Shown: positions 8,753 through 62,813, counted from the first letter of the stretch. The stretch: DNA of 63,810 nucleotides from Saprospiraceae bacterium (GCA_020848965.1 JADLHE010000005.1:1-63810), one strand, 5' to 3'. Made by a program: numbers and translations. Notes: generated from the sequence alone by a model not told the origin.

Positions 8753-11700
8753 TCAATCATCCAACTCCTCCCCTTCCACATCCGCAAAACTGTCCACTTG
8801 CTGCTGTGCCTTCAGGAAGCGGCACCACGAGCAGTCTTCTTGCCCGCAGCCCACGTAGAACTCCTGCCGCATGATTCGGGCGTAAGTATCGGTAATGAGT
8901 CCCTTCACGAAGACTACGTCCTCCGGCTGGTACTCGATGCGCTTCGTCTCGAAATTGCCCCGTGCATCGGGTTCGAGGTAGCTGATTTCGGCGCTGACGG
9001 CACGGGCCGTATTCCGCCGCCAATTGTCGAAGAGGATTTTGTAGAAAACGAGCTGGCGCCAGTAAGCACCGCCAATTTCGGATTTCGGATTTCGGATTTC
9101 GGATTGGGGGTCGTGCAACTTGCTACTGTCTGAGGACTGCTGGACTAACTGACTGTCGGACTGACTGCCAACTGCCAACTGTCGAACTGCCAACTCAAAA
9201 TTCGGCCTGCGCAGCCGCTCCGGGTCAACACCGCCCGTTTTATAGTCCACGATATGCGCTTCTTGGCCGCTTTTTCCTAGGTAATCTATCCGGTCTAGGA
9301 TGCCCATGATGGGCACGCCGTCCACCACCACGTTGTTGAATTCTTGCTCTACTTTGCAGTTCAATGTCCAATTGGCTTGGTGGTGGCGCACGTAGTCGGC
9401 GAGGTACTGCCTGCCGAGGTCGAGCCGCCGTTCAAAGTCTTTTTTGCTTAAAAACCCTTGCTGCCGTCGCATTTCATGCTCAAAAAACTGCACGAACTCG
9501 CCCGCAAAGGGAAAATGCCGATTGCCGGGGGCCGCCCGTAGCACTTGGTCGAAGCCCCGGCGCAAGGCATTGTGCATGGCCACGCCGTAGAACGCTGCTT
9601 CGGTAGCCACGGCAGGTGCCCGCAGCACATTTTCATAGTAAAAACTCAGCGGGCAGCGCAGGAACTTGTTCATGGCCGTTACGCTGAGGGTAAACTTCTC
9701 CAGTAGCGCCTGCACCGCCGCCCGGTCGTGAGTCCCGATGCCTTCGGTCGGCTTGCTTTCGAGCAGCAGCGCTGCTTGCGCCTCCAAAATGGCCATTGGG
9801 CTGACGCTGCCGGGTCGTTCCTCAATTCCCGTCCCGGCTCCAAGGGGGCTTGCCCCCTTGCCATTCCCCATTATTTCATCCAAAAACTGGGTGCGCATGA
9901 GCGCCTTCCCGTCGTCGCCTTGCGTGGCATAGCTGATGTGCAGCCGCTCCTTCGCCCTCGTCATGGCCACGTAGAACAAGCGCCGCCTTGCCTCTAGTGC
10001 ATCGGCCTCGCCGCTCAGGTGCAGCGTATCCGGGAAGCTAAACTGGAACTGCCCGCCCCGCTTGGCTGGCTCCCAATTGTCCTTCACGCAGTCGAGCAGG
10101 AAGACGTGGCGGAACTCAAGACCCTTGGAACTGTGAGCGGTGAGGAGTTGAACAGCTTGGTTTGAATTGTTTGAGGAGTTTGAATTGTTTGATGGGTTTG
10201 AGTCGCTTGGGAGACTGCCAACTGCCAACTGTCGAACTGTCGAACTTCCTGAAGCCAACTGTCGAACTGCCAACTGAATCCTATTTGCGTCCATGCTGGC
10301 GAAAACCTCCAACAGCCTCGTCAGGTGGAGCCGTGGATTGCGGAGCGCCTCGTTTTCGATGAAATTGGTGAAGGCGAACAGCACTTGCAGCAGCTCAGCC
10401 TTTCGGTCGCTGGCCAGTACGTGGCGCAGCAGACCGCTTCGGTTGATGAGCCTTTCGATAAAATGCGGCACGCTCAGGTTGGCGTATTCACCAAGCATAA
10501 ATTCCACAAAATCAGACAATTGTGAAAATGCATTGGGGTTTTCGACCCCAGCCGTTTCCAAGAAATTTTTATCGGAAATCAACTGCCGCCAAGGCCGGGC
10601 AACACTGACCGAATCGCCGTCTGCCGTCTGCCGTCCACCGTCCACCGTCCACCGTCCAGCGTTCACCGAGAGCCGAGCAATATCCTGTGGTTTTATCCCA
10701 AAAAACTCGAAATGCAACATTCGGAAAAGCGCCTGCTCGCCACTGAACGGGCGGTGGAACTCGTCCACAAAATAGCCGAGCATCAGGCGCAGGTTCTGCA
10801 CCAACGGCAGGTCGAGGGCATTGATGGATTGGCGGGTCTGGTACGGGATGCCTTTTTTTTCCAAAAGCGACATCAGGCGCTTGGCTTGGCGGTGCTTCGC
10901 AAAAATGACGGCTACCTCATCGAGCGGGAAGCCCTCGTTCATTAGGTTTTCGAGTTGCTCCGCAATGGCCACCTCCTCCTGCAAGCGGTTCGGGTAGGCG
11001 TTTACCGAAGGTAAAATGGACAACTGGGCATAGTCGGGATGCCGTGCAGTCAGGATTTTTTCCAGCCCCAAATCCTTGAGGTTGTTCACGATTCGCAGCG
11101 TGTTCGTGGCGATGAGTGTCCCTGCCGAGTCGAGTATGTGCTGCGTGGAGCGATAGTTTTCGGTCAGCACCACCACCTTCAGGTCGTCGTGGTGGGTGTG
11201 GTAAAAATCGGTGATGTTCTTCAGCCTTGCCCCCTGAAACTCGTAGATGCTCTGGTCGTCGTCGCCGACGATGAAGATGTTGGGGGCATCCCAATACTCG
11301 GTAAGGCCTTGCAGTATTTCGTTCTGTGCGCCGTTGGTGTCTTGGTATTCGTCGAGTAGGAAATAGAGGTACTGCTCTTGGTAGCGGGCCAGCAGGTAGG
11401 GGTGTTCCCGGAAGGCTCGTAGTACCCACAAAATCATGTCCTCGTAGTCGTAGCGGCGGCGCTCTCGCAATATTTCTTCATAGCGTGGGAACAACTTCAC
11501 AGCCGAGCGAAGCCGCTCCATTTTCAGTTTTTCATCCTCAATGGCGGCGGTTTTCAGGTCGCCTTTTTTCCAAGTGCCACGGTTTTGTTGGTAAATGAAC
11601 TCTTTGCGGGCGGGCAGGTCAGTGAGGTAGGCGTCTATTTTTTCTTCGACAAAAGTAGGCGTCCAGTTCTCCGATTTCATGCGGCGGAACAGCTCCTGCA

Positions 11701-12166
11701 AATGCTGCTCGTAGCGGTAGCCATCGGAGCGGCCCCGACGCAGCGGGTGCGTCCACGGCAGTTCGTCGAGGAGCTGGCGGAGGGTTTCCACCCGCTCTAG
11801 GTCGCTGAGTGGCTCGGTTTCCCGGCGGCCAAAAAGGTCGAGGTTGTCCTGAATGATGGTGTTGCAAAACGAGTGGAAGGTGAAGATATGCACCTTGTGG
11901 ACATCCGGCCCGATAAGTGAGAGCAGTCTTTGGCGCATGGCCTGCACCCCAGCATCGGTGAAGGTGAGGCAGAGGATATTGTGCGGCTGTGCATCGGTTT
12001 TCAGTAGGATGTTGCCGATGCGGGCAGCGAGGATATGTGTCTTGCCTGTGCCCGGCCCGGCGATGACCAGCACGGGGCCTTCGATGGTTTCCACGGCTTC
12101 CCGTTGCGCCGGGTTGAGGCGCTCCAGTTCCCGAAGGAATTGCTCATTGTTGGTCTGGATGGTCAT
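8753..12166 (-). CDS. UvrD/PcrA-type SF1 helicase fused to a C-terminal PD-(D/E)XK (RecB/AddB/Cas4-like) nuclease domain, carrying three in-frame low-complexity insertions
   Basis: ORF 8753..12226; start set to ATG 12166 (MTIQTNNEQFL). Helicase motifs: Walker A IAGPGTGKTH, LLDEYQDT, TAHSSKGLEF. Nuclease motifs: ILDRIDYL, IVDYKTG, YWRQLVFY. One Cys in CPLSFYY plus a C-terminal CGQEDCSWC cluster. Confidence 0.85.
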   Translation of the reverse strand: MTIQTNNEQFLRELERLNPAQREAVETIEGPVLVIAGPGTGKTHILAARIGNILLKTDAQPHNILCLTFTDAGVQAMRQRLLSLIGPDVHKVHIFTFHSFCNTIIQDNLDLFGRRETEPLSDLERVETLRQLLDELPWTHPLRRGRSDGYRYEQHLQELFRRMKSENWTPTFVEEKIDAYLTDLPARKEFIYQQNRGTWKKGDLKTAAIEDEKLKMERLRSAVKLFPRYEEILRERRRYDYEDMILWVLRAFREHPYLLARYQEQYLYFLLDEYQDTNGAQNEILQGLTEYWDAPNIFIVGDDDQSIYEFQGARLKNITDFYHTHHDDLKVVVLTENYRSTQHILDSAGTLIATNTLRIVNNLKDLGLEKILTARHPDYAQLSILPSVNAYPNRLQEEVAIAEQLENLMNEGFPLDEVAVIFAKHRQAKRLMSLLEKKGIPYQTRQSINALDLPLVQNLRLMLGYFVDEFHRPFSGEQALFRMLHFEFFGIKPQDIARLSVNAGRWTVDGGRQTADGDSVSVARPWRQLISDKNFLETAGVENPNAFSQLSDFVEFMLGEYANLSVPHFIERLINRSGLLRHVLASDRKAELLQVLFAFTNFIENEALRNPRLHLTRLLEVFASMDANRIQLAVRQLASGSSTVRQLAVGSLPSDSNPSNNSNSSNNSNQAVQLLTAHSSKGLEFRHVFLLDCVKDNWEPAKRGGQFQFSFPDTLHLSGEADALEARRRLFYVAMTRAKERLHISYATQGDDGKALMRTQFLDEIMGNGKGASPLGAGTGIEERPGSVSPMAILEAQAALLLESKPTEGIGTHDRAAVQALLEKFTLSVTAMNKFLRCPLSFYYENVLRAPAVATEAAFYGVAMHNALRRGFDQVLRAAPGNRHFPFAGEFVQFFEHEMRRQQGFLSKKDFERRLDLGRQYLADYVRHHQANWTLNCKVEQEFNNVVVDGVPIMGILDRIDYLGKSGQEAHIVDYKTGGVDPERLRRPNFELAVRQLAVGSQSDSQLVQQSSDSSKLHDPQSEIRNPKSEIGGAYWRQLVFYKILFDNWRRNTARAVSAEISYLEPDARGNFETKRIEYQPEDVVFVKGLITDTYARIMRQEFYVGCGQEDCSWCRFLKAQQQVDSFADVEGEELDD
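9075..9105. repeat. heptamer array ATTTCGG x4.4 inside the helicase CDS
   Basis: Read directly. Encodes ..SEIRNPKSEI.. on the minus strand. Confidence 0.9.
9134..9196. repeat. degenerate CCAACTG/GGACTGN word array inside the helicase CDS
   Basis: Read directly. Contains a 27-mer (9163-9189) identical to 10213-10239. Confidence 0.85.
10159..10202. repeat. GTTTGAA/TTGTTTG word array inside the helicase CDS
   Basis: GGTTTGAATTGTTTGAGGAGTTTGAATTGTTTGATGGGTTTGAG. Encodes the SNSSNNSNQ-type low-complexity peptide. Confidence 0.85.
10213..10276. repeat. CCAACTG / TCGAACTG word array inside the helicase CDS
   Basis: Encodes QLAVRQLASGSSTVRQLAVGS. Shares the exact 27-mer GACTGCCAACTGCCAACTGTCGAACTG with 9163-9189. 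Confidence 0.9.
10618..10668. repeat. heptamer arrays CGTCTGC x2 plus CGTCCAC x3 (and 2 degenerate units) inside the helicase CDS
   Basis: Read directly. 51 nt, or 17 codons. Encodes ..GRWTVDGGRQTADG.. Confidence 0.9.
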
Positions 12167-12253
12167 TGCGGAGCAAAGTAAGCATGTACAGAGCACAAAC
12201 ACAAAACTTGGACAGTCAGCGAACACTGATTAGCTTAGCCCAAATTTTGAACA

Positions 12254-15723: not shown

Positions 15724-17193
15724 TTATTGCTTCAATGCATACAAGTAGTAGTTCTCGTTTTTTACGTTGTAACCATCGAACGGTTTCCAAACTTGGGCAT
15801 TTGGATAGCGCGCTTTCTCCAATTCTTTGTCCGTGACGATTACGATGCCGCCAACGCCTTTGTACTTGGCAAAAAGCCTAAGCTCTGACTCTGTTGGCAG
15901 GTAAACCTTTTCCAGCCACTTGAAATAGGTGAAGGGCATCCCATTTGGCAATTCATAGAACGGCCTTCGGGCGTAGCCTGACACAGGGGCCGCAGCGAAT
16001 TTGTTGATAGCTACGATAGGCACATTTTCAGGTACATTTTTTCGGATGAACTCTCCCGCTATTTCGGCATTGGTAAAAGGGTACGACACATCTTTTTGCA
16101 ATGCCCGCAGGTTGTAGAGCAATTGCGCACCTAGGAACACCGCCAAGATGGTCGTTCGTTGCCAGTTTAGCGGCTTGGTTTCTTTGCTAGACAAGGCCAG
16201 GGCCATCAGGAAGAAGGCATACTGCATACCCCATTGCCGCAGCCCACCGGGATAAATGGCCACGCCGAAGAGGAAAAACGCAGTGGTGTGCAAAAAGAAA
16301 GTCCAGAATGCTTTGGCCGCAGGCCAGAAGAAATAAGCCAAGGCTATGACGACCAAGGCGCTAAGGAGCAAGTTGATGGCTGATACACCAAACACGTTGG
16401 TGTCTTTAATTAGGCCAATCAGGAAGGTATTGGCAAAGTCGCCTTGAAAGGCAGTGGCGAAGTTGTCCGCTGAGAATGGCTGGCTAGTGTAGGCTCGCCC
16501 CAGTTCTTCGTGTTGAGCGCGTGGGAACACCGTAGCGACAAAAAGCAAGACTCCCGCTGCGAACGCCGCTAGGGTTTTTCGCAGTGCCAAATCATGAAGC
16601 GCCATTTGCCATTTGCCTCCTTGCAGCTTCATTTGCAATAAATGGAACCACAAGCAGGCCGCCATGATGACGCCAAAGACCTCGGTCTGGCAGAGCAGGA
16701 AGAGGTAAATGCCCAGTGTCCAAGGTTTCTCATCCGTTTTTTCGAGCGCCGAGACGCCCAAAAAACCAAACAACAGGACGAAAGCATAGCCTCGGTCTAG
16801 AATGCCGTATTCAAAGAAAATGAAATAGCCAAACAGGGCCAACGCTTTCACCCAGAAAGCCATGCGCAACCGGAACACCAGCACCGCCCATGTAGCAGTT
16901 ACGACCAACCAATGCGACAGGTGCAGCAATGTCTCACCGGGCAACTTGGTCGCTTGGGCCAGATAGGTCCAGATTTTCAAGTAAAAATACCATATGGCGG
17001 GGTGGCCTTCGTAGAACAGCGATGCATACAATTTGCCCCAACCCATGTCACGGGCCATGAGCCAAGCCTGCCATTCGTCCTTCCAACATTCGTGAAAGCC
17101 AAATTTGACAGTCAAAGCAAAAAGACTAGCGGCAGCCAACAATATGTATTTTGCTGGCTTGGAGCTACCGTCCTCTATGGTGGGCAAATTCAT
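15724..17193 (-). CDS. polytopic membrane protein, possibly a GT-C-type glycosyltransferase (function uncertain)
   Basis: 489 aa with many hydrophobic helices and a soluble C-terminal ~130 aa. No catalytic motif that I can name. Confidence 0.5.
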   Translation of the reverse strand: MNLPTIEDGSSKPAKYILLAAASLFALTVKFGFHECWKDEWQAWLMARDMGWGKLYASLFYEGHPAIWYFYLKIWTYLAQATKLPGETLLHLSHWLVVTATWAVLVFRLRMAFWVKALALFGYFIFFEYGILDRGYAFVLLFGFLGVSALEKTDEKPWTLGIYLFLLCQTEVFGVIMAACLWFHLLQMKLQGGKWQMALHDLALRKTLAAFAAGVLLFVATVFPRAQHEELGRAYTSQPFSADNFATAFQGDFANTFLIGLIKDTNVFGVSAINLLLSALVVIALAYFFWPAAKAFWTFFLHTTAFFLFGVAIYPGGLRQWGMQYAFFLMALALSSKETKPLNWQRTTILAVFLGAQLLYNLRALQKDVSYPFTNAEIAGEFIRKNVPENVPIVAINKFAAAPVSGYARRPFYELPNGMPFTYFKWLEKVYLPTESELRLFAKYKGVGGIVIVTDKELEKARYPNAQVWKPFDGYNVKNENYYLYALKQ

Positions 17194-18195: not shown

Positions 18196-18209
18196 CGCAA
18201 AAATTATTC

Positions 18210-18369
18210 AATGGTTCGTGAAGTGTCGGGTTTAAATTTTCAGGGAAGAACCTGCAATACTCATTTTTGGAAGGGTTGATTTGCTATCAAAGCCATTTCA
18301 AAAATGCCGTCATTTCATTTGCCGTAGAAGTTCCGTGAAACCTGAAACTTTAAACCTTTACGAACCATT
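18210..18369. repeat. ~160-bp palindromic MITE/REP-like element, copy 1
   Basis: Termini AATGGTTCGTGAAG... and ...CTTTACGAACCATT are inverted. The arms are built from GGTTT / AAACC 7-nt-periodic words. The element ends 2 nt from the stop codon at 18371. Confidence 0.6.
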
Positions 18370-18370
18370 A

Positions 18371-18712
18371 TTATTGGATGGCCTTCAACAGTTCTTCGTA
18401 CACCTTCACCCGGTTTTTGTTGAGGCCGAATGAGCCTGTTTTGAAAATGGTGTAGATGAAATAGGCCATTCCCATCAAAAATATATAGACGGTGATTTGG
18501 CTGAACTTGGTCAAAAACAAGGCTGCCGTGTAGGCCACGAACCAAACACCCCCAAACCAGATGTCACGCTGTATCAGCTTTTTGAAGTAGGCAATTTTCT
18601 CCTCTAGCCACTCGGCGCTGAGGTCTTCTTGTGCCTTCAGGATGATTTGTTCCTTTTTTGGCAAAATGCTGATGATGCGTTCCAACTCTTTGGGCTGCAA
18701 TTTTTTACCCAT
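18371..18712 (-). CDS. small membrane protein (2 TM), unknown function
   Basis: ATG start; two hydrophobic helices in the C-terminal half. Confidence 0.5.
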   Translation of the reverse strand: MGKKLQPKELERIISILPKKEQIILKAQEDLSAEWLEEKIAYFKKLIQRDIWFGGVWFVAYTAALFLTKFSQITVYIFLMGMAYFIYTIFKTGSFGLNKNRVKVYEELLKAIQ

Positions 18713-19469: not shown

Positions 19470-19541
19470 GAGGATTTGAAGATGCGTGGATTCGAGGATT
19501 CGTGCGGGGGGCATCTCAAATCCTCGCATCTTCAAATCCTC
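19470..19541. repeat. 17-bp perfect inverted repeat built from GAGGATT(T/C) octamer words, between two minus-strand genes
   Basis: GAGGATTTGAAGATGCG (19470-19486) and CGCATCTTCAAATCCTC (19525-19541). The spacer contains further GGATTCGAGGATTC / AAATCCT words. Confidence 0.85.
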
Positions 19542-19553
19542 AAATCCTCACTA

Positions 19554-19910: not shown

Positions 19911-19937
19911 AGCAAGCTATCTTTGCGGCTTCCTAAA

Positions 19938-19995
19938 GGTTACTGGTCAATGCTTATTGGTCGTTAAAGACCCCAATGAACAGTGGCTAATGACC
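19938..19995. repeat. GGTCATT-family 7-nt-periodic word array with an inverted half
   Basis: GGTTACT GGTCAAT GCTTATT GGTCGTT AAAGACC CCAATGA ACAGTGG CTAATGA CC. Confidence 0.6.
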
Positions 19996-20019
19996 TTCTA
20001 AGAGTCAAAATTACCAAAA

Positions 20020-20601: not shown

Positions 20602-20632
20602 GAAATGGGCTGTGAGGTTTGGGTTAAGGGTT

Positions 20633-20677
20633 GCGAGCGGATTACTCGAAACTCGAAACTCAAAACTCAAAACTTCT
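20633..20677. repeat. ACTCGAA/ACTCAAA heptamer array with GCGAGC head, 5 nt upstream of the pabB ATG
   Basis: GCGAGCGGATTACTCGAAACTCGAAACTCAAAACTCAAAACTTCT. Near-identical to 62774..62813. Confidence 0.85.
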
Positions 20678-20681: not shown

Positions 20682-21980
20682 ATGACGAGGCTTTCCGAAA
20701 TATTTCCCCTTCCAATCGGCCATGATTTCAAGCAACGAGCCTTCCGCTGGGCGAGCCAGTTCGAGGTGTCTTGCTATCTGGACAGCAACGGCTACCAAGG
20801 CGTCGTCGGCAGTGAGCATGATTGTCTGTTGGCGGTTGGTGTTGCTTCGCAATTGCTGCTAAAAACCGAAGCTGGTGCCTTCAATGCGCTGAAAAATTAC
20901 GTGGACGGCCACCAAGACTGGCTTTTCGGCTACCTTACCTACGACCTGAAGAACGACGTGGAACCCCGTCTTTCTTCAAAAAACCACGATGGCATTGGCT
21001 TCCCCGCCCTGCATTTTTTCCAACCAGCGGTGGTCATGGAGATTGCGCAGCAAAGTGTCACCATTCACAGCCTAACAGATTTGCCGCAGCTACTCTACAA
21101 AACCATCAACAGTTTGCCACATACAGTACGGGTTGGCGCAATCCGCAATCCGCAATCCGCAATCCGCAATAGAATACACAAGGCCGATTACCTAGAAACC
21201 ATCCAAGCCATCCGCCAGCACATCCTTCGGGGCGATATTTACGAGATGAATTTTTGCCAAGAATTCTTCGCAGAGGATTGCCTGATTGATGCCCCTGCCG
21301 TTTTTCAAAAATTGAACGGCCTTGGGAAAGCTCCTTTCTCAGGTTATTACCGCCTTGCCGACCGCCACCTACTTTGCGCCAGCCCTGAGCGGTTTTTGAA
21401 AAAAATAGGCAGTAAGCTCATATCGCAGCCCATCAAAGGTACCCGCCGCAGGGGCCGTACCGTCGAAGAAGATGCCGCATTGCGCCAGCAACTCTACCAA
21501 AGCCAGAAAGACCGCTCCGAAAATGTGATGATTGTTGACCTCGTTCGCAACGACCTCGCCCGCTCCTGCCGGGCAGGTAGCGTGCTGGTGGATGAACTGT
21601 ACGGCATTTATCCGTTCGAGCAGGTGCTCCAAATGATTTCGACGGTGAGCGGCGAGCTGTTGCCGGACGTACATCCCGTGGACGCCATACGCCGCTCCTT
21701 CCCGATGGGCTCCATGACCGGGGCGCCCAAGGTGCGCAGCATGGAACTGATAGAGCAGTACGAACAGACTAAACGGGGACTGTATTCCGGGGCGGTAGGC
21801 TACTTCACCCCGCAGGGCGATTTTGACTTCAATGTGGTTATCAGAAGTATCCTCTACAACGCCGCCGACCGTTTCCTGAGCTTCCAGGCTGGCGGGGCCA
21901 TCGTCTTTGATTCGGAGCCGGAAAGTGAGTATGAAGAGAGCCTTCTCAAGGCTCAAGGCATGTTCAAGGTGCTGTCTTGA
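20682..21980 (+). CDS. pabB: aminodeoxychorismate synthase component I (chorismate-binding enzyme family)
   Basis: ORF 20631..21980; the ATG at 20682 gives MTRLSEIF. Motifs PIKGTRRRG, VRNDLAR, SFPMGSMTGAPK and GGAIVFDS. Confidence 0.8.
   Translation: MTRLSEIFPLPIGHDFKQRAFRWASQFEVSCYLDSNGYQGVVGSEHDCLLAVGVASQLLLKTEAGAFNALKNYVDGHQDWLFGYLTYDLKNDVEPRLSSKNHDGIGFPALHFFQPAVVMEIAQQSVTIHSLTDLPQLLYKTINSLPHTVRVGAIRNPQSAIRNRIHKADYLETIQAIRQHILRGDIYEMNFCQEFFAEDCLIDAPAVFQKLNGLGKAPFSGYYRLADRHLLCASPERFLKKIGSKLISQPIKGTRRRGRTVEEDAALRQQLYQSQKDRSENVMIVDLVRNDLARSCRAGSVLVDELYGIYPFEQVLQMISTVSGELLPDVHPVDAIRRSFPMGSMTGAPKVRSMELIEQYEQTKRGLYSGAVGYFTPQGDFDFNVVIRSILYNAADRFLSFQAGGAIVFDSEPESEYEESLLKAQGMFKVLS
21137..21171. 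repeat. heptamer array CGCAATC x~5 inside the pabB CDS
   Basis: Read directly. Encodes GAIRNPQSAIRN. Confidence 0.9.
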
Positions 21981-32394: not shown

Positions 32395-32487
32395 TTTGAT
32401 GGATTTTTATAGGTAAACGGAGAGTCAAATCCATGCCATAAAGCACATGTGGGGCAGCGTATTGATTTTTGCAAAAAGCGAAATTTC

Positions 32488-32647
32488 AATGGTTTGAGGT
32501 TTCTGGTTTCAAGTTCCACGGTAAAGGCCTGCTAAATCATTTTTCAGTAGGTTCTTTGGTCAAACCAATCGTTTTGAAAATGCGATTTATTTGAAATTGA
32601 ACCAGAAACTCCATGAAACCTTAAACTTGAAACCTTCACGAACCATT
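32488..32647. repeat. ~160-bp palindromic MITE/REP-like element, copy 2
   Basis: Termini AATGGTTTGAGGTTTCTGGTTTCAAG... and ...CTTGAAACCTTCACGAACCATT. Same ends and length as 18210..18369. The element ends 5 nt from the stop codon at 32652. Confidence 0.6.
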
Positions 32648-32651
32648 GATA

Positions 32652-34984: not shown

Positions 34985-35011
34985 CTTTCGAGGTTGATGT
35001 GGTTTATGAAA

Positions 35012-35058
35012 TTGATAAGGGTTGATGGGGTACCTGCGACTCCATCAACCCTTATCAA
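35012..35058. terminator. 17-bp perfect hairpin between convergent radical-SAM and sodA genes, built from TTGATAAGGG-type words
   Basis: TTGATAAGGGTTGATGG (35012-35028) and CCATCAACCCTTATCAA (35042-35058). Imperfect extension of the arms spans 34991..35079. Confidence 0.55.
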
Positions 35059-35086
35059 CTTTTATCAACCCTTCATAAACCAAGTA

Positions 35087-39790: not shown

Positions 39791-40699
39791 ATGAACCACT
39801 ACACTTGGACATACGTCGGCGATGCGGGTAGGAACTACCGGGTAGGCCTGATGTACGGCCCCAAGACCGGACACTTGCTCATTTACATCGGCTCCAAAAT
39901 CGTACAAGTGGACTTCAAGGTATTCGAATCGAAGGAGTACACGTTTTTTATTGAGGAAGAACTGGTGCACATCAACCTCGAACGGCGGGGCAACGAGATG
40001 TACTTCACCTTCAATATTGACAAAGAAGCCAACACGCCCCGCAACCAAGTACGCCACTCTTTGGAGCGGAAGTATTTCCGGCACATGCTCATATTTCTGG
40101 GCGTGATGGGTGTTTTGGTGGCTGGGGTGGTCATTTTCGGAAGGAATGCCAAAAAATCGGAAACGCAGCGTATCGAAGAGGCATTGGCGGAGGGCAGCCA
40201 AGAGGCAACTGGGCGAGTGCTTTTGAAGAAACTGGACGCCAACCAAACGGAGATTTCCTACGAATTCGTGGCAGGTACCGAGACCATCACCTCCAAATCC
40301 TTGATACAGTCCGAGCCGCTCATTCTTTTGGTGAACCCCATGCCCTTGGAGCCAGGAGATGAGTGTCGGGTGCGGTACTCCACCCGAAAGCCACGCATTA
40401 ACCAGATGCTCTTCAGCGAGCCGATGCCTCGGCAAGTGGAAATCTATAAACAACGGGCCATTGCAAAGCACAACCTGCTGCACCCCGATGCTCCATCTGG
40501 CATGACTGATTGTTTCGTGCAAACGGCCTTCGAACGGGATAGCCTTCGGGCCTTGGCCGACATCTATTTTCAGGACACCAAGCCCGGTTACAACCTGGAG
40601 CACAACCTCGAAACCTATGCGAAACTCACCACGGACAAAGGTTTCTTGGCGAAAATGGAGGAAAAATGCGGGCATTTAATAAAGCTTGATAAGGGTTGA
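39791..40699 (+). CDS. hypothetical single-pass membrane protein
   Basis: ATG start and one TM helix (MLIFLGVMGVLVAGVVIF). Preferred over the antisense ORF 39713..40675. Confidence 0.55.
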   Translation: MNHYTWTYVGDAGRNYRVGLMYGPKTGHLLIYIGSKIVQVDFKVFESKEYTFFIEEELVHINLERRGNEMYFTFNIDKEANTPRNQVRHSLERKYFRHMLIFLGVMGVLVAGVVIFGRNAKKSETQRIEEALAEGSQEATGRVLLKKLDANQTEISYEFVAGTETITSKSLIQSEPLILLVNPMPLEPGDECRVRYSTRKPRINQMLFSEPMPRQVEIYKQRAIAKHNLLHPDAPSGMTDCFVQTAFERDSLRALADIYFQDTKPGYNLEHNLETYAKLTTDKGFLAKMEEKCGHLIKLDKG

Positions 40700-40796
40700 T
40701 AAGCTTGGCATCGTTCGCCAAGTATCAGCTCATTTTTTTGACTATTTTTGCACGCTTTTTACAAACCCACGCCCCTCTAACAATCCAACAATTTAG

Positions 40797-43175: not shown

Positions 43176-43217
43176 GCAGTGTTTTCCTATTTCTTCAAAT
43201 GCCGACGGCATCAAATT

Positions 43218-43286
43218 GTCATTTGCCATTGGTCATTGAGGTCATTTCGAGTGAATGCCCATGACTTAAATGCTCAATGAACATTG
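43218..43286. repeat. GTCATTT/GCCATTG/GTCATTG word array upstream of ORF 43320..43730
   Basis: GTCATTTGCCATTGGTCATTGAGGTCATTTCG...CCCATGAC...CTCAATGAACATTG. Confidence 0.7.
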
Positions 43287-43730: not shown

Positions 43731-43742
43731 TGATGCACATCC

Positions 43743-43819
43743 GGTCATTATAGTCTTGAGTCATTGGGTCATTTGATGATTCCCATGACCTATGGCCAAT
43801 GGCACGAATGACCAATGAC
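43743..43819. repeat. GGTCATT / AATGACC word hairpin downstream of ORF 43320..43730
   Basis: GGTCATT...AGTCATTGGGTCATT...CCCATGACC...GAATGACCAATGAC. The arms AGTCATTGGGTCATT and GAATGACCAATGACA are near-complementary. Confidence 0.7.
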
Positions 43820-44362
43820 AAAAAAATGAGAGCAAAAAAAGTAAGTGAATCAACGGCCACCATGACCGAAATGGTGATGCCCAACGATACAAACCCCCTG
43901 CAAAACCTGATGGGCGGCAACCTGATGCGTTGGATGGACGTGGCGGCCAGCATTGCCGCAGGCAAACACTGTGAAGCACATGTGGTCACGGCCAGTGTTG
44001 ACCATGTTTCTTTCCACAAGCCTATTGCCTTGGGCGACATCGTGACCTTAAACGCACGCCCAACGAGGGCTTTCAACACCTCCGTAGAGATTTTCGTGGA
44101 GGTGTTTGCTGCTGACATCAAAGGCGGAAACCCTCGGAAGTGCAACCATGCCTACTTCACCTTTGTGGCCATTGAGGATGAGACCCGCAAGCCGAAGCCG
44201 GTGCCGGAAGTAATCGCCTTGACGGGTGAAGAAGAAAAGCTGTACGAAAGCGCTGCACGCAGGCGGGAAGTGCGCCTCGTGCTCAGCGGACGGATGAAGC
44301 CAGAAGAGGCGTCAGAGCTACGGGCGCTTTTCTTGAGTTTCGAACCGAACGACGGGAACTAA
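43799..44362 (+). CDS. acyl-CoA thioesterase (hotdog fold, YciA-like)
   Basis: MPNDTNPLQNLMGGNLMRWMDVAASIAA...VTASVDHVSFHKPI. The start is uncertain, ATG 43799 or 43826. Confidence 0.8.
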   Translation: MARMTNDKKMRAKKVSESTATMTEMVMPNDTNPLQNLMGGNLMRWMDVAASIAAGKHCEAHVVTASVDHVSFHKPIALGDIVTLNARPTRAFNTSVEIFVEVFAADIKGGNPRKCNHAYFTFVAIEDETRKPKPVPEVIALTGEEEKLYESAARRREVRLVLSGRMKPEEASELRALFLSFEPNDGN

Positions 44363-56557: not shown

Positions 56558-56637
56558 CAATGATAAATGATGAATGATGAATGATGAATCCTCACGGCAC
56601 ATCATTTATCATTCTATCATTTATCATTCATCATTTG
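56558..56637. repeat. AATGATG heptamer array plus inverted TCATCATT-type array forming a long imperfect hairpin between atpD and atpC
   Basis: CAATGATAAATGATGAATGATGAATGATGAATCC ... ACATCATTTATCATTCTATCATTTATCATTCATCATTTG. Confidence 0.85.
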
Positions 56638-57084: not shown

Positions 57085-57097
57085 GAAAGCGCAATGT

Positions 57098-58081: not shown

Positions 58082-58124
58082 GAAGTAAATGATTGAAGCC
58101 TGCCTTGTCGGCAGACAGGGATGG
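58082..58124 (-). promoter_or_regulatory. start-codon-proximal motif with CTGCC-N5-GGCAG hairpin, copy upstream of the epimerase gene
   Basis: The minus strand reads CCATCCCTGTCTGCCGACAAGGCAGGCTTCAATCATTTACTTC, directly followed by the ATG at 58081. Confidence 0.45.
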
Positions 58125-58200
58125 AATGAGTGAAGGATGGAAGGAAACACACGGCAACAATATCAACCCTTGATTCCCTCAGCCCTTCATTCCTTGAACG
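58118..58200. repeat. GGAATGA/GAAGGAT words and an inverted CCCTTCATTCC copy in the 5' region of the epimerase gene
   Basis: GGGATGGAATGAGTGAAGGATGGAAGGAAAC ... TTGATTCCCTCAGCCCTTCATTCCTTGAACGG. Confidence 0.55.
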
Positions 58201-58783: not shown

Positions 58784-58847
58784 TGGGTCGGCAAAGGTTT
58801 TAGTTGTAAAAACTGGCTAGGTGCATGCGCAGTGAGCGACTGCCAAC

Positions 58848-59420: not shown

Positions 59421-59447
59421 TTCAAATTTTTCATTCCCGTAGGGAGC

Positions 59448-60011: not shown

Positions 60012-60243
60012 CGAATCTTGCGTGAGGGTTTGGTGGATAGACTTCTACAAGTTGGCAAAGTTTAAAAAGCCTGTAAAAATTTTATTGTTATGCTCGAAAA
60101 AGCCTTCTCGCACAATTTTTGCCATAAAACCCAGTTAGGCGCAGGTAAAAGTTGAACATGGCTTGTGCATTATCTCCATTGCAGCCATCCTCACTACTTT
60201 TGTTGCACTTAAACAAGCCCCTGAGTCCTTAAAACTGATAGTC

Positions 60244-62403
60244 ATGAGAATTCTACCACATAAAGATTTGTTCCGCAAGATAGCATTTGCCTGTCTTGCT
60301 GCGGCAGCGCTTGGAACTACTTCGCCACTGCTGGCGCAATCCAAGACCATAGACAAGGCCAACGAACTCTATAAAAACAACCAGTTCTCCGATGCAGCGG
60401 ACCTATACCGCCGTGCCTTGCAGGAAATGGAAAACGAGGGCAAACTGGGTCGGAATGCCACCACGCTCAAGAGCAAACTCGCCTATTGCTACCGCATGAA
60501 CAACAAAATGGACATGGCCGAGGCACTCTACGCCGAAGTGGTGAAGGACGAAACCGCAAAGGCGGATAACCTATACTATTATGGCGAGGCACTGATGAGC
60601 AATGGCAAGTACGACGAAGCCCGTAAATGGTTTTCGGACTACCAAAAACTGGAGCCACAGGACGAGAAAGCGGGCCTTATGCTTCGGGCTTGCGACTACG
60701 CCCCGCTCATTCAGCCTTATTTCCAATATATTGATATACAGCCGTTTCCGTTCAATTCCGATGCCGATGACAATGCCCCGATTGCTAGCCGAAAGGGCCT
60801 GATTTTCTCCTCGGACCGGAAACAGGGCATGAAGATACTGAAGGAAAAATCGGGCTGGACTGGCCGTGATTACCTCAACCTTTATATCAGCGAGAAAAAA
60901 ACGAATGGCAGTTTTGCAGAGCCGATTCAATACTCCTCCAAACTGAGCGAGGTGAACAAAAACACGGGCAATGCCTCCCTCACCGCCGATGGTTCCGAGA
61001 TTTTCTTTACCCGAAACGACAATGAACTGAACAAGCAGAACACCTACAGCTTGCAACTCTACTCCGCAAAATCGGGCGAAACCGAGCGCTGGAAAGACGT
61101 CGAAAAACTGCCATTTTGCTCATCAAACCACAATTTCATGCACCCCGCTGTATCGCCCGATGGCAAATTGCTCTTTTTTGCATCCAATCGGGCAGGCGGC
61201 TTCGGCGGCACGGACCTTTGGGTTTCGGAGCGGAAAAATGGCGAATGGAGCAAGCCGGAAAACCTCGGCCCCGCAGTGAACACCACGGCCAACGAGGGCT
61301 TCCCGTTCGTGGCGATTGATGGCAAATTGTATTTCTGCTCCAAAGGCCACCCCGGCTTCGGCGGCTTCGATATTTTCATGACCTACAAAGACGAGAACGG
61401 GGCCTGGCAGCCAGCCACCAACCTTGGCAAACCCATCAATAGCCCATTGGACGATATTTCCATCTTTGTTGCCAACGACGAGCATAGTGGCTATTTCACC
61501 AGCAGCCGCAGTGGCGGCGATGATGATATTTACATTTTCACCGTGCTGGACAAAGCACCCGAATTACCCACGGCGGAGGAGCCAGTAGCTATTGTAACAA
61601 CACCAACCGTAGCTCCTGCCATAACGGAAACACCCCAACCAGCTAGTGAGGAAATAGCCGTTGAGGAGCCAGCAGCCGTTGTAGAAACGAAAAAAATAGA
61701 ACTCCCCATTGCGACGCCGCCGCCTGCAAAAGTGGAGGAAAGCCCCGTGCAGTCGGTTCAAAAGCCCCAATCTCAGCCCGTTGCCGTTGAAGAGCCTACC
61801 CCCAAAACGCATCAAAAAAGCGAAGAATTAAAGCCAGTAGCACCTGCGGAAACTGATAAAGGCCCAGCTTCGGAAGTAGTCCCACCAACTACCCAAAGCA
61901 AAGACCCTTTTGCGCCGACTGAAGTTGCGGAGCAAAAGCCCAAAACACTGGAGCCTGGGAAAAGCTATATCAACCAATTGGGCAGTTTCGTTGATTTATC
62001 CAGCAAGCTGGATGATGGTAGCTTAGCATTGGGCGAGCGTTTTCGCTTGGATGGCGCAGTGTTCGACCCCAATGTTTGGCAGTTGACCCCAAGGGTCATT
62101 AACCCATTGAACAAACTGGCGAACCTATTGAAAAACTATCCTTCGCTTCAAGTTGAAATCAGTGCGCATACGGAGGCGCTGGGTGTGGATGAAACAAACC
62201 TCCAAATTTCGGAGAGCCGAGCCGGTACCATCTTAGATTATCTGGTACGGGAAGGCATTGACAAGCGACGTATCCTGACAAAGGGCTGCGGGGAAACCAT
62301 GCCCCTCAACCATTGCCGAAATGGGGAGACTTGCAGCATGGATGAACACATGCTCAACCATCGCATAGAGGTAAAAGTGTTGGCCGTAGATGGAAAATGG
62401 TAA
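60244..62403 (+). CDS. OmpA-family protein with TPR region, TolB-like beta-propeller repeats, Pro-rich linker and C-terminal OmpA domain
   Basis: ORF 60163..62403; the ATG at 60244 gives MRILPHKDLFRKIAFACLAAAALG. Repeated SPDG..L.F.S.R.GG.G..D.. propeller blades. C-terminus ISAHTEALGVDETNLQISESRAGTILDYL. Confidence 0.8.
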   Translation: MRILPHKDLFRKIAFACLAAAALGTTSPLLAQSKTIDKANELYKNNQFSDAADLYRRALQEMENEGKLGRNATTLKSKLAYCYRMNNKMDMAEALYAEVVKDETAKADNLYYYGEALMSNGKYDEARKWFSDYQKLEPQDEKAGLMLRACDYAPLIQPYFQYIDIQPFPFNSDADDNAPIASRKGLIFSSDRKQGMKILKEKSGWTGRDYLNLYISEKKTNGSFAEPIQYSSKLSEVNKNTGNASLTADGSEIFFTRNDNELNKQNTYSLQLYSAKSGETERWKDVEKLPFCSSNHNFMHPAVSPDGKLLFFASNRAGGFGGTDLWVSERKNGEWSKPENLGPAVNTTANEGFPFVAIDGKLYFCSKGHPGFGGFDIFMTYKDENGAWQPATNLGKPINSPLDDISIFVANDEHSGYFTSSRSGGDDDIYIFTVLDKAPELPTAEEPVAIVTTPTVAPAITETPQPASEEIAVEEPAAVVETKKIELPIATPPPAKVEESPVQSVQKPQSQPVAVEEPTPKTHQKSEELKPVAPAETDKGPASEVVPPTTQSKDPFAPTEVAEQKPKTLEPGKSYINQLGSFVDLSSKLDDGSLALGERFRLDGAVFDPNVWQLTPRVINPLNKLANLLKNYPSLQVEISAHTEALGVDETNLQISESRAGTILDYLVREGIDKRRILTKGCGETMPLNHCRNGETCSMDEHMLNHRIEVKVLAVDGKW

Positions 62404-62554
62404 AAATCTTTTGGGCAATTTTACACTAAGTTTATTGGGGTTGCTGTTTTTGTAAATTATTGAATATCAAATACTTGCAAGTTGTTTTACCTTGGAATTT
62501 CCAAAATCCATCCGTTATGGAAATAAAAAAAGTGGCTCTTCAAGTGCGTTGGCT

Positions 62555-62586
62555 ATTGCGCCGTATTGCATAAGCGGTTAAGTTTG
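62555..62586 (+). promoter_or_regulatory. candidate promoter for the pheA leader region
   Basis: ATTG (62555-62558), 20-nt spacer, TAAGTTTG (62579-62586). The leader-1 ATG is 19 nt downstream of the -7 box. Confidence 0.35.
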
Positions 62587-62604
62587 CCGCATAATCGAAA
62601 TCAA

Positions 62605-62661
62605 GATGAATCTGTATCCGAACAATTTTTGGTTTAGCTTTTACTTTTACGGTCAATCGTA
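62605..62661 (+). CDS. candidate leader peptide 1: MNLYPNNFWFSFYFYGQS
   Basis: Own reading. 18 codons, 8 of them F/W/Y. About 12 nt downstream of a candidate promoter. Followed by an antiterminator/terminator pair. Confidence 0.55.
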
Positions 62662-62711
62662 ACGGGGCTAAAGCATTTTGTTCTTCAATCAGGTTTGAAA
62701 ATAAAATCAAA

Positions 62712-62737
62712 GAGTCCCGCTTGCGGGACTTTTTTTT
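62712..62737 (+). terminator. intrinsic terminator (attenuator 1) after leader peptide 1
   Basis: AGTCCCG-CTTG-CGGGACT followed by a long T-run. Confidence 0.7.
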
Positions 62738-62773
62738 TGCCCTTATTCAAAAAGACAAGTGATGAGCGATGAT

Positions 62774-62813
62774 GCGAGCATACTCGAAACTCGCAACTCA
62801 AAACTCATAACTT
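62774..62813. repeat. ACTCGAA-family heptamer array with GCGAGC head, 12 nt upstream of the leader-peptide-2 ATG
   Basis: GCGAGCATACTCGAAACTCGCAACTCAAAACTCATAACTT. Near-identical to 20633..20677. Confidence 0.85.

What the first reader, a model, noticed from the sequence alone, without database searches (positions are those of the whole stretch)
9075..62813. Window-wide system of 7-8 nt tandem word arrays, usually paired with an inverted copy
At least 16 loci in 64 kb share one construction principle but not one sequence. A 7-nt (sometimes 8-nt) word is repeated 3-7 times in tandem. It is often followed after a short spacer by an array of the reverse-complement word, giving a long imperfect hairpin. 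The words seen are as follows. ATTTCGG at 9075. CCAACTG at 9134 and 10213. CGTCTGC and CGTCCAC at 10618. GGTTTCA/TGAAACC at 18210 and 32488. GAGGATT(T/C) at 19470. GGTCATT/AATGACC at 19938, 43218 and 43743. ACTCGAA at 20633 and 62774. CGCAATC at 21137. TTGATAAGGG at 35012 and 40686. AATGATG/TCATCAT at 56558. GGAATGA at 58118. The 42-bp repeat at 52555 is six heptamer lengths. Classical REP/BIME or MITE families share a consensus sequence. Here the architecture is conserved while the word changes from locus to locus, with a small vocabulary reused at 2-3 sites. The arrays sit at gene ends, between operon genes, just upstream of start codons and in frame inside genes. The nearest known analogue I can name is the heptameric STRR repeats of heterocystous cyanobacteria; I know of no such description for Bacteroidota. 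A dedicated generating mechanism, such as templated slippage or a repeat-specific transposase/nuclease encoded elsewhere, or an RNA-level function, is possible but is pure inference.
Basis: seen in the sequence. Interest (0 to 1): 0.75.

Follow-up and report, generated by a model that had tools for sequence, protein, structure and literature searches.

The report
Heptamer repeat arrays forming intergenic hairpins
This stretch of a Saprospiraceae (Bacteroidota) chromosome is peppered with tandem 7-8-base repeats, often as mirror-image pairs that fold into hairpins filling the gaps between genes; this is a real, fast-evolving relative of the poorly understood heptamer repeats of cyanobacteria, not a new kind of system.

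Summary
Exact period-7 arrays number 9 in the window. Dinucleotide shuffles give 0, codon-shuffled genes give 0.01, and periods 4-6 and 9-16 give none. There are two forms. (i) Inverted pairs: a G/T-rich array, a loop, then a C/A-rich array. These fill whole spacers from stop codon to start codon and fold strongly (z -5 to -9.5). (ii) In-frame arrays inside variable loops of an AddA-like helicase-nuclease and a PabB-like enzyme. Syntenic relatives show gain and loss, copy-number change and word replacement at orthologous sites, while the flanks stay about 95% identical. A small vocabulary recurs at non-orthologous sites: 26 shared-word pairs against 0.66 expected. The atpD-atpC spacer is a hot spot across Bacteroidota, with 15 times the array density of other co-directional spacers and a different word in each lineage. 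Stem mismatches show no G·U preference. The window encodes no transposase.

Best reading: these are slippage-driven heptanucleotide simple-sequence repeats of the STRR/LSSR kind, whose hairpin forms are tolerated or mildly useful at operon junctions. Heptamer excess, heptamer repeats in some Bacteroidetes and inverted heptamer pairs in Xanthomonas are already published. New here are the Saprospiraceae case, the conserved hot spot and the arm polarity. The 42-bp repeat is unrelated.

The parts
9075..9105 (.). ATTTCGG x4.4, in frame in the AddA-like helicase-nuclease (gene on the - strand; encodes PKSEIRN repeats). Insertion hot spot 4, inside the PD-(D/E)XK domain loop.
9134..9195 (.). Degenerate ACTGCCA/ACTGTCG array (encodes QLAVGS/AVRQ), in the same hot spot of the AddA-like gene.
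10160..10276 (.). 9-mer GTTTGAATT array followed by an ACTGCCA/ACTGTCG heptamer array, in frame in the AddA-like gene (hot spot 2). Relatives carry other words or an inverted pair at this position.
10616..10668 (.). GCCGTCT x2.9 plus CCGTCCA x5.4, in frame in the AddA-like gene (hot spot 1).
16601..16617 (.). Minor GCCATTT x2.4 array inside a 489-aa ORF.
18205..18372 (.). ~165-nt element with heptamer-like inverted termini (GGTTTCA/TGAAACC). It fills the spacer between the stop of gene 18371-18712(-) and the start of the DUF1232 gene. It is absent from the orthologous 12-39-nt spacers of L086, L001 and L002.
19470..19549 (.). Hairpin with 8-nt GAGGATT(T/C) arrays, 27-31-nt arms, 93% complementary. 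It lies between the stop of gene 19554-19910(-) and the rhomboid start. The same word occurs at the orthologous site in three relatives, with different lengths.
19936..19997 (.). Decayed GGTCATT/AATGACC hairpin in a divergent spacer. L086 has a pristine palindrome at this site, while the flanks are ~95% identical.
20609..20674 (+). G-rich GGTTTGG/GGGTTAA segment plus an ACTCGAA/ACTCAAA x4.4 array. It fills the nitroreductase-pabB spacer (83 nt). Relatives have 13-19 nt at this site.
21137..21170 (+). CGCAATC x4.9, in frame in the PabB-like linker (encodes SAIRNPQSAIRN). L001 has the same word here. L002 has the word CCCTCAC, and L086 has a peptide (SSLTPHPSIL) consistent with that word.
32483..32650 (.). 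Second copy of the ~165-nt element. Mean column identity to 18205-18372 over the aligned stretch is 81%. It ends next to the stop codon of the short-chain dehydrogenase gene (-).
34995..35075 (.). Hairpin built on the 10-nt word TTGATAAGGG, filling a convergent spacer between the radical-SAM and Sod_Fe (superoxide dismutase-domain) genes.
40686..40735 (.). TTGATAAGGG x2 followed by a short hairpin. The weakest member.
43215..43285 (+). Degenerate GGTCATT-type hairpin between the lipoate-ligase-like gene and the next ORF.
43738..43822 (+). GGTCATT/AATGACC hairpin between ORF 43284-43730 and the thioesterase gene.
56559..56636 (+). AATGATG x4.4 / CATCATT x5 hairpin filling the atpD-atpC spacer: 1 nt after the stop codon and 10 nt before the start codon.
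58116..58196 (.). Imperfect hairpin with 8-nt GGATGGAA-type arrays, upstream of the epimerase gene (-) and downstream of a canonical terminator at 58227-58261.
62782..62812 (+). Unpaired ACTCGAA/ACTCAAA x4.4 array, downstream of a terminator-like hairpin at 62713-62730.

Best explanation
These are heptanucleotide (locally octanucleotide) simple-sequence repeat arrays of the STRR / long-SSR kind, here in a Saprospiraceae chromosome.

Shown:
- The arrays are specific to period 7-8 and lie far beyond chance.
- They change in copy number, word and presence between orthologous sites of close relatives, much faster than their flanks.
- They are about 10 times denser in spacers than in genes.
- A few related words recur at unrelated sites.

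Inferred:
- The arrays grow and shrink in place by replication slippage with a preferred 7-8-nt step. This is the polymerase-footprint idea attributed to Mrazek 2007.
- The complementary second arm arises by intrastrand template switching (fold-back copying).
- Variant words spread within an array by repeated slippage.

Why they persist (inferred): an inverted pair folds on itself, so an insert of any length still leaves the upstream stop codon and the downstream start codon side by side at the base of the stem. Operon junctions such as atpD-atpC therefore tolerate it, and may use it as an intercistronic stem-loop. In genes, only arrays that keep the reading frame and fall in surface loops survive. 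No dedicated enzyme needs to be invoked, and none is seen in the window.
For: - Period specificity and excess.
- In-place turnover. The GAGGATT hairpin is present in the window and three relatives at different lengths. A pristine (L086) and a decayed (window) GGTCATT palindrome sit in ~95%-identical flanks. The nitroreductase-pabB spacer is 83 nt in the window and 13-19 nt in three relatives.
- The AddA-like orthologues range from 1101 to 1175 aa. All length variation falls in four hot spots that carry 7-aa-periodic peptides, and these are absent from distant ~1047-aa homologues.
- Array density per kb: coding sequence 0.02, co-directional spacers 0.20, convergent 0.20, divergent 0.09.
- The hairpins span their spacers. 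In 23 atpD-atpC hairpins the stem begins 0-5 nt after the stop codon in 22 of 23 and ends 0-13 nt before the start codon in 18 of 23. The window loci show similar geometry.
- Stem mismatches look neutral on the sense strand: G·T 46, A·C 40, other 43; 23 against 15 in the window.
- No transposase, reverse transcriptase or REP-associated tyrosine transposase (RAYT) among the ~60 ORFs.
- Literature: heptamer excess with a slippage explanation, heptamer repeats in Bacteroidetes, and inverted pairs in Xanthomonas (PMC4679880, PMC4692102).
Against: - Pure local slippage does not explain why the same words turn up at non-orthologous sites. Examples are AATCCGC in both AddA and PabB, and AACTGCC in two AddA hot spots and an intergenic hairpin of L083. 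The count is 26 shared pairs against 0.66 expected.
- It does not explain why the word in the PabB linker is distributed against the phylogeny: the window and L001 share one word, while L002 has another and the closer relative L086 carries a peptide consistent with that other word.
- It does not explain the arm polarity. The 5' arm is G>C in 11 of 11 window hairpins and in 19 of 22 atpD-atpC hairpins that show a skew (23 analysed). Ordinary hairpins give 33 against 26.
- The 15-fold excess at atpD-atpC suggests selection rather than mere tolerance.
- Why the step is 7-8 nt is not explained by anything tested here.
Confidence: 0.55

Rival explanations
1. The arrays and hairpins are small non-autonomous mobile elements (MITE-, REPIN- or SDR-like). 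They are copied to new sites by an enzyme encoded elsewhere in the genome, and slippage only remodels them afterwards.
For: - The word vocabulary is reused at non-orthologous sites far beyond chance.
- There are clean filled/empty orthologous sites for the 165-nt element and for the nitroreductase-pabB hairpin.
- Two copies of the 165-nt element share inverted termini CAATGGTTYG.
- Inverted pairs occur in frame inside the AddA-like gene of L083, as with Rickettsia palindromic elements.
- Word distribution in the PabB linker is incongruent with phylogeny.
- Some IMG/VR contigs carry the same word at up to 7 places.
Against: - There is no shared consensus, terminus or clear target-site duplication across loci.
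- No further copy of the 165-nt element was found in 2.1 Mb of related loci.
- The window encodes no transposase or RAYT.
- Orthologous hairpins differ by gradual unit changes rather than by presence or absence.
Confidence: 0.2
2. The intergenic hairpins are selected RNA elements at operon junctions. They could be intercistronic stem-loops that stabilise the upstream message, act as RNase III sites, or couple translation of the downstream gene to termination upstream. This would be like REP/BIME in malE-malF. In this view slippage is merely how the stems drift.
For: - The atpD-atpC spacer carries 22 arrays in 7.2 kb (3.06 per kb), against 0.20 per kb in other co-directional spacers, across many Bacteroidota families and with different words.
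- 24 of 34 atpD-atpC spacers of 60-200 nt fold with z < -3 (median -5.2), and 20 of 34 close end to end. Other co-directional spacers give 34 of 150, median -1.1, and 40 of 150.
- The stems start at the stop codon and end at the start codon.
- The 3' arm next to the start codon is G-poor. This fits the Shine-Dalgarno-less, A-rich leaders of Bacteroidota (my knowledge, not tested here).
Against: - There is no wobble preference in stem mismatches on the sense strand: 46 G·T against 40 A·C, and 23 against 15 in the window.
- 39 of 80 orthologous atpD-atpC spacers are 40 nt or shorter, too short to hold such a hairpin.
- Stems of 30-67 bp are far longer than any such function needs.
- The same arrays occur inside genes and in convergent and divergent spacers.
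- The hairpins lack the T tail of terminators.
Confidence: 0.2
3. Chance, compositional bias or assembly artefact.
For: The weakest loci (40686, 43218, 16601) would not stand alone.
Against: - Shuffles give 0-0.5 arrays against 9-10 observed.
- Only periods 7-8 are enriched.
- The arrays are conserved at orthologous positions in independent assemblies, including isolate genomes.
Confidence: 0.01

Closest known systems
STRR (short tandemly repeated repetitive) heptamers of heterocystous cyanobacteria, and heptanucleotide long SSRs in general (Mazel 1990 from memory; Mrazek 2007 as cited in PMC4679880 and PMC4692102)
   Same: Tandem 7-nt units; several word families dispersed over the chromosome; mostly intergenic; hypervariable; function and origin unknown. 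One word is identical: GGTCATT is a rotation of TTGGTCA and matches GAC(C/T)AAT of Nostoc recO.
   Different: The host is Saprospiraceae (Bacteroidota). Most intergenic copies are inverted pairs forming spacer-filling hairpins with a consistent arm polarity. 8-nt units are mixed in. In-frame arrays occur in housekeeping proteins.
TAACTGA and other heptamer direct repeats of Beggiatoaceae, cyanobacteria and five Bacteroidetes (MacGregor 2015, PMC4679880)
   Same: Heptamer arrays just upstream of start codons and occasionally inside ORFs. Related genomes have shorter spacers without repeats. Bacteroidetes are included.
   Different: That system is dominated by one word in direct orientation, with a single inverted case. 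Here there are many words and mostly inverted pairs. TAACTGA itself occurs only once, inside the 9134 array.
GGGAATC / GGGGA(T/C)T heptamer repeats of Xanthomonas and Nostoc (Rehm 2015, PMC4692102)
   Same: Intergenic heptamer arrays with extensive length and sequence variation between close species at the same gene pairs. Some occur as convergent inverted pairs able to form stem-loops. They share a GGATT-type core with the window words GAGGATT, GCGGATT and CGGATTT.
   Different: Those repeats are G-quadruplex-prone and form a single family. The words here are mostly not G4-forming.
REP/BIME and REPINs with RAYT transposases (PMC3116915)
   Same: Extragenic imperfect palindromes at operon junctions and gene ends, and a possible role as mRNA stem-loops.
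   Different: REPs share a family consensus and are linked to a RAYT gene. Here the sequence differs from locus to locus, and no RAYT is seen in the window.
Rickettsia palindromic elements (in-frame palindromic insertions in protein genes; from memory)
   Same: Palindromic repeats tolerated in frame within surface loops of housekeeping proteins, such as the AddA-like hot spots and the inverted pair in L083.
   Different: RPEs are 100-150-bp elements with a conserved consensus, not tandem heptamers.

Membership tests
Heptanucleotide long SSR / STRR-like repeats | Head-to-tail copies of a 7-nt unit, 3 or more copies | tested here: met
   for example ATTTCGG x4.4, CGCAATC x4.9, CCGTCCA x5.4, AATGATG x4.4
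Heptanucleotide long SSR / STRR-like repeats | Over-represented against chance and against other unit lengths | tested here: met
   Period 7 gives 9 arrays against 0 in shuffles; period 8 gives 1; periods 4-6 and 9-16 give 0. Codon shuffle gives 0.01 against 6.
Heptanucleotide long SSR / STRR-like repeats | A few word families dispersed over many loci | tested here: met
   26 shared-word pairs against 0.66 expected among 32 arrays of the clade
Heptanucleotide long SSR / STRR-like repeats | Length and sequence variable between close relatives at the same locus | tested here: met
STRR in the strict sense | Host is a heterocystous cyanobacterium | tested here: not met
   The best relatives of the window are Saprospiraceae metagenome-assembled genomes. 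It is therefore STRR-like, not STRR.
REP/BIME/REPIN | Copies share a family consensus sequence | tested here: not met
   Words differ from locus to locus
REP/BIME/REPIN | Imperfect palindrome in extragenic DNA | tested here: met
REP/BIME/REPIN | Associated RAYT (Y1 transposase) gene in the genome | not testable with these tools
   None among the window ORFs. The rest of the genome is not available.
MITE | Several copies of one element with terminal inverted repeats, and presence/absence between relatives | tested here: inconclusive
   This holds only for 18205-18372 and 32483-32650: two copies, 81% mean column identity, absent from L086, L001 and L002. No further copies were found and a target-site duplication is unclear. 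It does not hold for the other loci.
Intrinsic (Rho-independent) terminator | G+C-rich stem followed by a run of T | tested here: not met
   The heptamer hairpins in the scanned region (43001-63000) are not called by the scan. Canonical terminators sit elsewhere, for example 56979-57006 after atpC and 58227-58261.
Phase-variable contingency locus | Unit gain or loss switches a gene on or off within a population | not testable with these tools
   No population reads are available. All coding arrays seen keep the reading frame and lie in housekeeping genes.
Known structured RNA family | Match to an Rfam covariance model | tested here: not met
   0 matches at gathering score over the whole window

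The most novel reading that the evidence does not exclude
A lineage-encoded, templated repeat-adding or template-switching activity deposits words from a small 7-8-nt vocabulary as inverted pairs (G/T-rich arm first) at breaks or stalled forks. That would explain together the reuse of identical words at unrelated sites, word replacement against the phylogeny at one site, the arm polarity, and a unit length that appears to differ between lineages (period 7 in spacers of Saprospiraceae-labelled contigs, period 8 in most Chitinophagaceae- and Ferruginibacter-labelled ones). The same activity might underlie the unexplained heptamer repeats of cyanobacteria, Beggiatoaceae and Xanthomonas.
Probability: 0.08. 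Interest if true: 0.85.

Novelty: new variant of a known kind. Interest (0 to 1): 0.5.

Why it matters
Heptamer repeats have been known in bacteria for decades (Mazel 1990, from memory). Why the unit is seven bases, how identical words reach many sites, and what the repeats do all remain open. This window, together with the comparison panel assembled here, offers an unusually tractable handle on those questions. One orthologous junction (atpD-atpC) repeatedly carries a spacer-filling heptamer or octamer hairpin across Bacteroidota families, with the word replaced from lineage to lineage. Some carriers are cultivable, for example Mucilaginibacter segetis (L053). That makes direct tests possible: swapping the hairpin, measuring slippage by unit length, and mapping transcript ends. 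If the repeats turn out to be only tolerated slippage products, they still matter for two reasons. They are a source of rapid loop-length variation in housekeeping proteins, and they cause assembly and annotation errors, such as over-extended ORFs and broken contigs.

Tried and rejected
- Rfam scan of the whole window: no match.
- Exact-sequence look-up of AtpC to find the same species elsewhere: nothing on record.
- Contigs encoding close AddA orthologues (L081-L083): synteny outside the gene is not conserved, so they served only for word counts and the in-gene hot spots.
- Wobble test for RNA-level selection (G·T against A·C on the sense strand): no bias, 46:40 and 23:15. It has limited power and no good positive control, since generic hairpins also gave 131:141.
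- Universal arm polarity: rejected. It holds in the Bacteroidota panel. In IMG/VR contigs it holds for GATTGCG, TGGCAGT and TGGTTCA (10:0), but it is reversed for GGTCATT in several GC-rich contigs (2:6).
- 'Globally limited vocabulary': not shown. Counts of (word)x3 in IMG/VR were 29, 48 and 28 for window words, but 2 and 34 for two scrambles.
- More copies of the 165-nt element: none in 2.1 Mb.
- The 42-bp repeat as part of the system: rejected.
- The heptamer hairpins as terminators: rejected.
- Elhai 2008 and Mrazek 2007 could not be read. They are cited only through secondary sources or marked as memory.

Full report
**Where the window comes from.** The ATP synthase beta subunit and an AddA-like helicase-nuclease have their closest relatives in Saprospiraceae metagenome-assembled genomes. 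Identity is 90% and 85% at the protein level. About 60 ORFs were scanned against Pfam. All are ordinary chromosomal genes: RF-1, PRPP synthetase, HtpG, tail-specific protease, a Sod_Fe-domain protein, atpD/atpC, a TonB-dependent receptor and others. None is a transposase, integrase, reverse transcriptase or Y1/RAYT enzyme. Rfam finds nothing at gathering score.

- Tandem Repeats Finder reports period-7 arrays at 9075, 9164, 10214, 10616/10631, 20644, 21137, 56559/56601 and 62782. It reports period-8 arrays at 19469/19515 and 58119.
- An exact-run test gives 9 period-7 arrays against 0.0 in 50 dinucleotide-preserving shuffles. Period 8 gives one, and periods 4-6 and 9-16 give none.
- A mismatch-tolerant score gives 10 against 0.2-0.5.
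- Shuffling codons within 54 ORFs gives 0.01 arrays, against 6 observed in coding sequence.
35012 and 40686 have a 10-nt unit. 19470 and 58118 have an 8-nt unit. 19938, 43218 and 43743 are degenerate.
- The 42-bp repeat at 52555 has no period-7 substructure and is unrelated.

**Anatomy.** There are two forms.

(i) Intergenic inverted pairs consist of an array, a loop of 7-18 nt (83-89 nt in the two larger elements), and the complementary array. The predicted folds are far more stable than shuffles:

| Span | z-score |
|---|---|
| 56555-56640 | -9.5 |
| 35005-35080 | -9.0 |
| 19465-19555 | -7.9 |
| 19935-20000 | -5.1 |
| 43740-43825 | -4.8 |
| 18205-18372 | -4.8 |
| 32483-32650 | -4.0 |

The hairpins fill their spacers. 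In the window the stem base lies 1-12 nt from the upstream stop codon and 7-14 nt from the downstream start codon at five co-directional junctions. In the region scanned (43001-63000) they have no T tail and are not called as terminators. Canonical terminators sit elsewhere, for example after atpC at 56979-57006.

The loci at 18205 and 32483 are two copies of one ~165-nt element whose inverted termini are heptamer-like. Mean column identity over the aligned stretch is 81%.

(ii) Arrays also lie in frame inside genes. Five sit in the AddA-like gene (8753-12166, minus strand) and one in the PabB-like gene. These do not fold (z between -0.5 and +2.6).

**Comparison with relatives.** Twenty AddA-like orthologues were aligned. 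The arrays occupy four hot spots that are absent from distant ~1047-aa homologues and hypervariable among close ones (1101-1175 aa). Relatives carry 7-aa-periodic peptides there, which is what a heptamer array gives when read in all three frames:
- a PHPSSLx-type 7-residue repeat, about six units, in P0009;
- SAIRNPQ (word CCGCAAT, the same word as the window's 21137 array) in P0004, P0006 and P0010;
- PKSEIRN (CCGAAAT) in the window.

In L083 one hot spot holds an in-frame inverted pair, (GGATTGC)n...(CAATCCG)n.

A metagenome contig, L086, is fully syntenic with window 17.3-24 kb at 78-94% protein identity. L001 and L002 cover the same genes. Spacer by spacer:
- The 165-nt element is present only in the window. 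Relatives have spacers of 12-39 nt.
- The nitroreductase-pabB spacer is 83 nt with the ACTCGAA hairpin in the window. It is 13-19 nt in three relatives (L086, L001, L002), two of which share the identical 13-mer TAAAAACGCAGCA.
- The GAGGATT hairpin is present in all four genomes with the same word but different lengths.
- The divergent spacer at 19938 holds a pristine (GGTCATT)x4/(AATGACC)x3 palindrome in L086 and a decayed version in the window, while the flanks are about 95% identical.
- In the PabB linker the window and L001 carry the AATCCGC word. L002 carries CCCTCAC, and L086, which is closer to the window than L001 is, carries a peptide (SSLTPHPSIL) consistent with that word. This runs against the phylogeny.

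The arrays are therefore real genomic features that turn over much faster than their surroundings.

**Vocabulary.** Among 32 arrays in the window and eight relatives, 26 non-adjacent pairs share the same word class under rotation and reverse complement. Random heptamers give 0.66 on average, with a maximum of 3 in 200 draws. Some sharing reflects orthology. However, AATCCGC occurs in both AddA and PabB, and AACTGCC occurs in two AddA hot spots and in an intergenic hairpin of L083.

By my own inspection the words fall into a few related groups: a GGATT type, a TCATT type and an AACT type. GGTCATT is a rotation of cyanobacterial STRR2 TTGGTCA (from memory) and matches the GAC(C/T)AAT array upstream of Nostoc recO (bioRxiv 10.1101/2022.06.06.494920). 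Counts of three-unit arrays in IMG/VR were 29, 48 and 28 for three window words, but 2 and 34 for two scrambles. A globally closed vocabulary is therefore not shown.

**An unexpected hot spot.** The 80 atpD loci were fetched only to identify the organism, and they serve as an independent panel.
- Exact arrays in the panel are again dominated by period 7: 27, against 1 each for periods 8 and 9.
- The atpD-atpC spacer carries a heptamer or octamer hairpin in many Bacteroidota families, including an isolate genome, Mucilaginibacter segetis (L053). The word differs in almost every lineage: AGTTATG, ACGGTTG, ATTTCGG, TTGTCAA, TGGTAAA, GTGAGTT, TTTGGTG and others.
- Array density there is 3.06 per kb, against 0.20 in other co-directional spacers and 0.02 in coding sequence.
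- Pooled autocorrelation of the 38 spacers of 40-220 nt peaks at 7 (0.413), 8 (0.353), 14 and 21, against 0.286 in shuffles.
- Of 34 spacers of 60-200 nt, 21 are 7- or 8-periodic. Period 7 is found in the spacers of Saprospiraceae-labelled contigs and period 8 in most Chitinophagaceae- and Ferruginibacter-labelled ones.
- 24 of the 34 fold with z < -3 (median -5.2), and 20 close end to end. Among 150 other co-directional spacers, 34 fold with z < -3 (median -1.1) and 40 close end to end.
- Yet 39 of the 80 orthologous spacers are 40 nt or shorter, too short to hold such a hairpin.

**RNA-level or DNA-level?** In 23 atpD-atpC hairpins, stem mismatches on the sense strand are G·T 46, A·C 40 and other 43. 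In the window's oriented hairpins they are 23, 15 and 21. There is no wobble preference, so pairing shows no sign of RNA-level purifying selection. The test has limited power, and a 2:1 bias is only just excluded.

**Arm polarity.** The 5' arm is G>C in 11 of 11 window hairpins. It is G>C in 19 of the 22 atpD-atpC hairpins that show a skew, out of 23 analysed. It is G>C in 7 of 8 other heptamer hairpins, against 33:26 for ordinary hairpins. In a simpler test on neighbouring arrays the count is 14:2. This property is the same on both strands, so it is a real asymmetry of the structure.

An independent test on IMG/VR contigs agreed for three words (10:0) but was reversed for GGTCATT in several GC-rich contigs (2:6). 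The polarity is therefore lineage-dependent and not universal. Possible reasons are all inference:
- a need for a G-poor leader upstream of start codons in Shine-Dalgarno-less Bacteroidota;
- avoidance of a C-rich first-emerging arm that could load Rho;
- fold-back priming favoured by G·T self-pairing of a G/T-rich nascent array.

**Interpretation.** The most economical reading is that these are heptanucleotide simple-sequence repeats of the kind already known as STRR in cyanobacteria and as over-represented heptamer long SSRs in many prokaryotes. PMC4679880 and PMC4692102 attribute that observation, and a polymerase-footprint slippage explanation, to Mrazek 2007. Slippage, template switching between arms, and tolerance or use at junctions are inferred. 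Turnover, position, vocabulary reuse and neutral-looking stems are shown.

Reuse of words at unrelated sites, word replacement against the phylogeny, the polarity and the atpD-atpC excess are not explained by plain slippage. They keep two rivals alive: small mobile elements driven by an enzyme encoded elsewhere, and selected intercistronic RNA stem-loops.

**Comparison with the literature.**
- MacGregor 2015 (PMC4679880) describes TAACTGA and other heptamer direct repeats in Beggiatoaceae, cyanobacteria and five Bacteroidetes. Relatives there have shorter, repeat-free spacers.
- Rehm 2015 (PMC4692102) describes GGGAATC repeats in Xanthomonas. Their length varies between species at the same gene pairs, and some form inverted pairs.
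- My full-text searches found no description for Saprospiraceae, none of a conserved operon-junction hot spot with word turnover, and none of arm polarity.

I therefore rate this a new variant of a known kind, of moderate interest. The claim of no precedent in Bacteroidota is not right, and a dedicated mechanism remains possible but unsupported.

Noticed in passing
window 56558-56645 and loci L001-L080 (atpD-atpC spacers): The atpD-atpC spacer is a hot spot for 7-8-nt array hairpins across many Bacteroidota families. It has 15 times the array density of other co-directional spacers, and the word differs by lineage. Period 7 is found in Saprospiraceae-labelled contigs and period 8 in most Chitinophagaceae- and Ferruginibacter-labelled ones.
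   Followed up: yes
all heptamer hairpins of the window; L001-L086: The arms have a polarity: the 5' arm is G/T-rich and the 3' arm is C/A-rich in nearly all Bacteroidota cases (11 of 11 window hairpins; 19 of 22 at atpD-atpC). The polarity is reversed for GGTCATT pairs in several GC-rich IMG/VR contigs (L167, L174, L177, L178). Unexplained.
   Followed up: partly
window 40800-40825, 52685-52712, 58095-58115; also the divergent spacer of L001 (about 14150-14180): A short G+C-rich palindrome, CTGCC-N3-8-GGCAG, recurs in spacers next to 7-8-nt arrays. The copy at 52691 is flanked by a 13-nt direct repeat, TTTTCAATTCTCC. It may be a tiny REP- or SDR-like element.
   Followed up: partly
window 52555-52665: Two to three copies of a 42-nt direct repeat (CAGGGTGGCACTGCCAAAGTTT...) lie between an AraC-family regulator gene and a secreted pectate-lyase-like (type IX sorting domain) gene. 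They might be regulator binding sites. There is no heptamer substructure.
   Followed up: partly
window 8753-12166 (-): The AddA-like helicase-nuclease holds 5 of the window's 9 exact heptamer arrays in about 5% of its length. One hot spot lies inside the PD-(D/E)XK nuclease domain. Orthologues vary from 1101 to 1175 aa because of these inserts.
   Followed up: partly
L086 about 9400-9700: Two near-perfect long palindromes that are not heptamer arrays (AAAAAATTCTTGGCGGCTGGCGGC...GCCGCCAGCCGCCAAGAATTTTTT and GGGGGAAACGAAAATTTTGC...GCAAAATTTTCGTTTCCCCC) lie in the spacer between the M20 peptidase start and the LolA gene, 272 nt in L086 against 129 nt in the window. This suggests a general tendency to palindromic insertions in this lineage.
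   Followed up: no
window 17.8-27 kb versus 54.9-57 kb; L001, L002: In relatives L001 and L002 the genes matching window 17.8-27 kb follow directly after atpC. The window lineage, or theirs, therefore has a rearrangement separating these blocks by about 30 kb.
   Followed up: no
window 36274-36305: A perfect 32-nt palindrome, AGACCTTCCAAGTTGCGCAACTTGGAAGGTCT, lies between the Sod_Fe (superoxide dismutase-domain) and response-regulator genes.
   Followed up: no
window 54887-55040: The longest atpD ORF starts at a TTG about 50 codons upstream of where homologues begin to align. The real start is probably near 55030-55040.
   Followed up: no
IMG/VR loci L258, L261, L235: Some viral or proviral contigs carry (CGCAATC)n arrays at 4-7 separate places on one contig. 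Single-word dispersal therefore also occurs outside the window's lineage.
   Followed up: no
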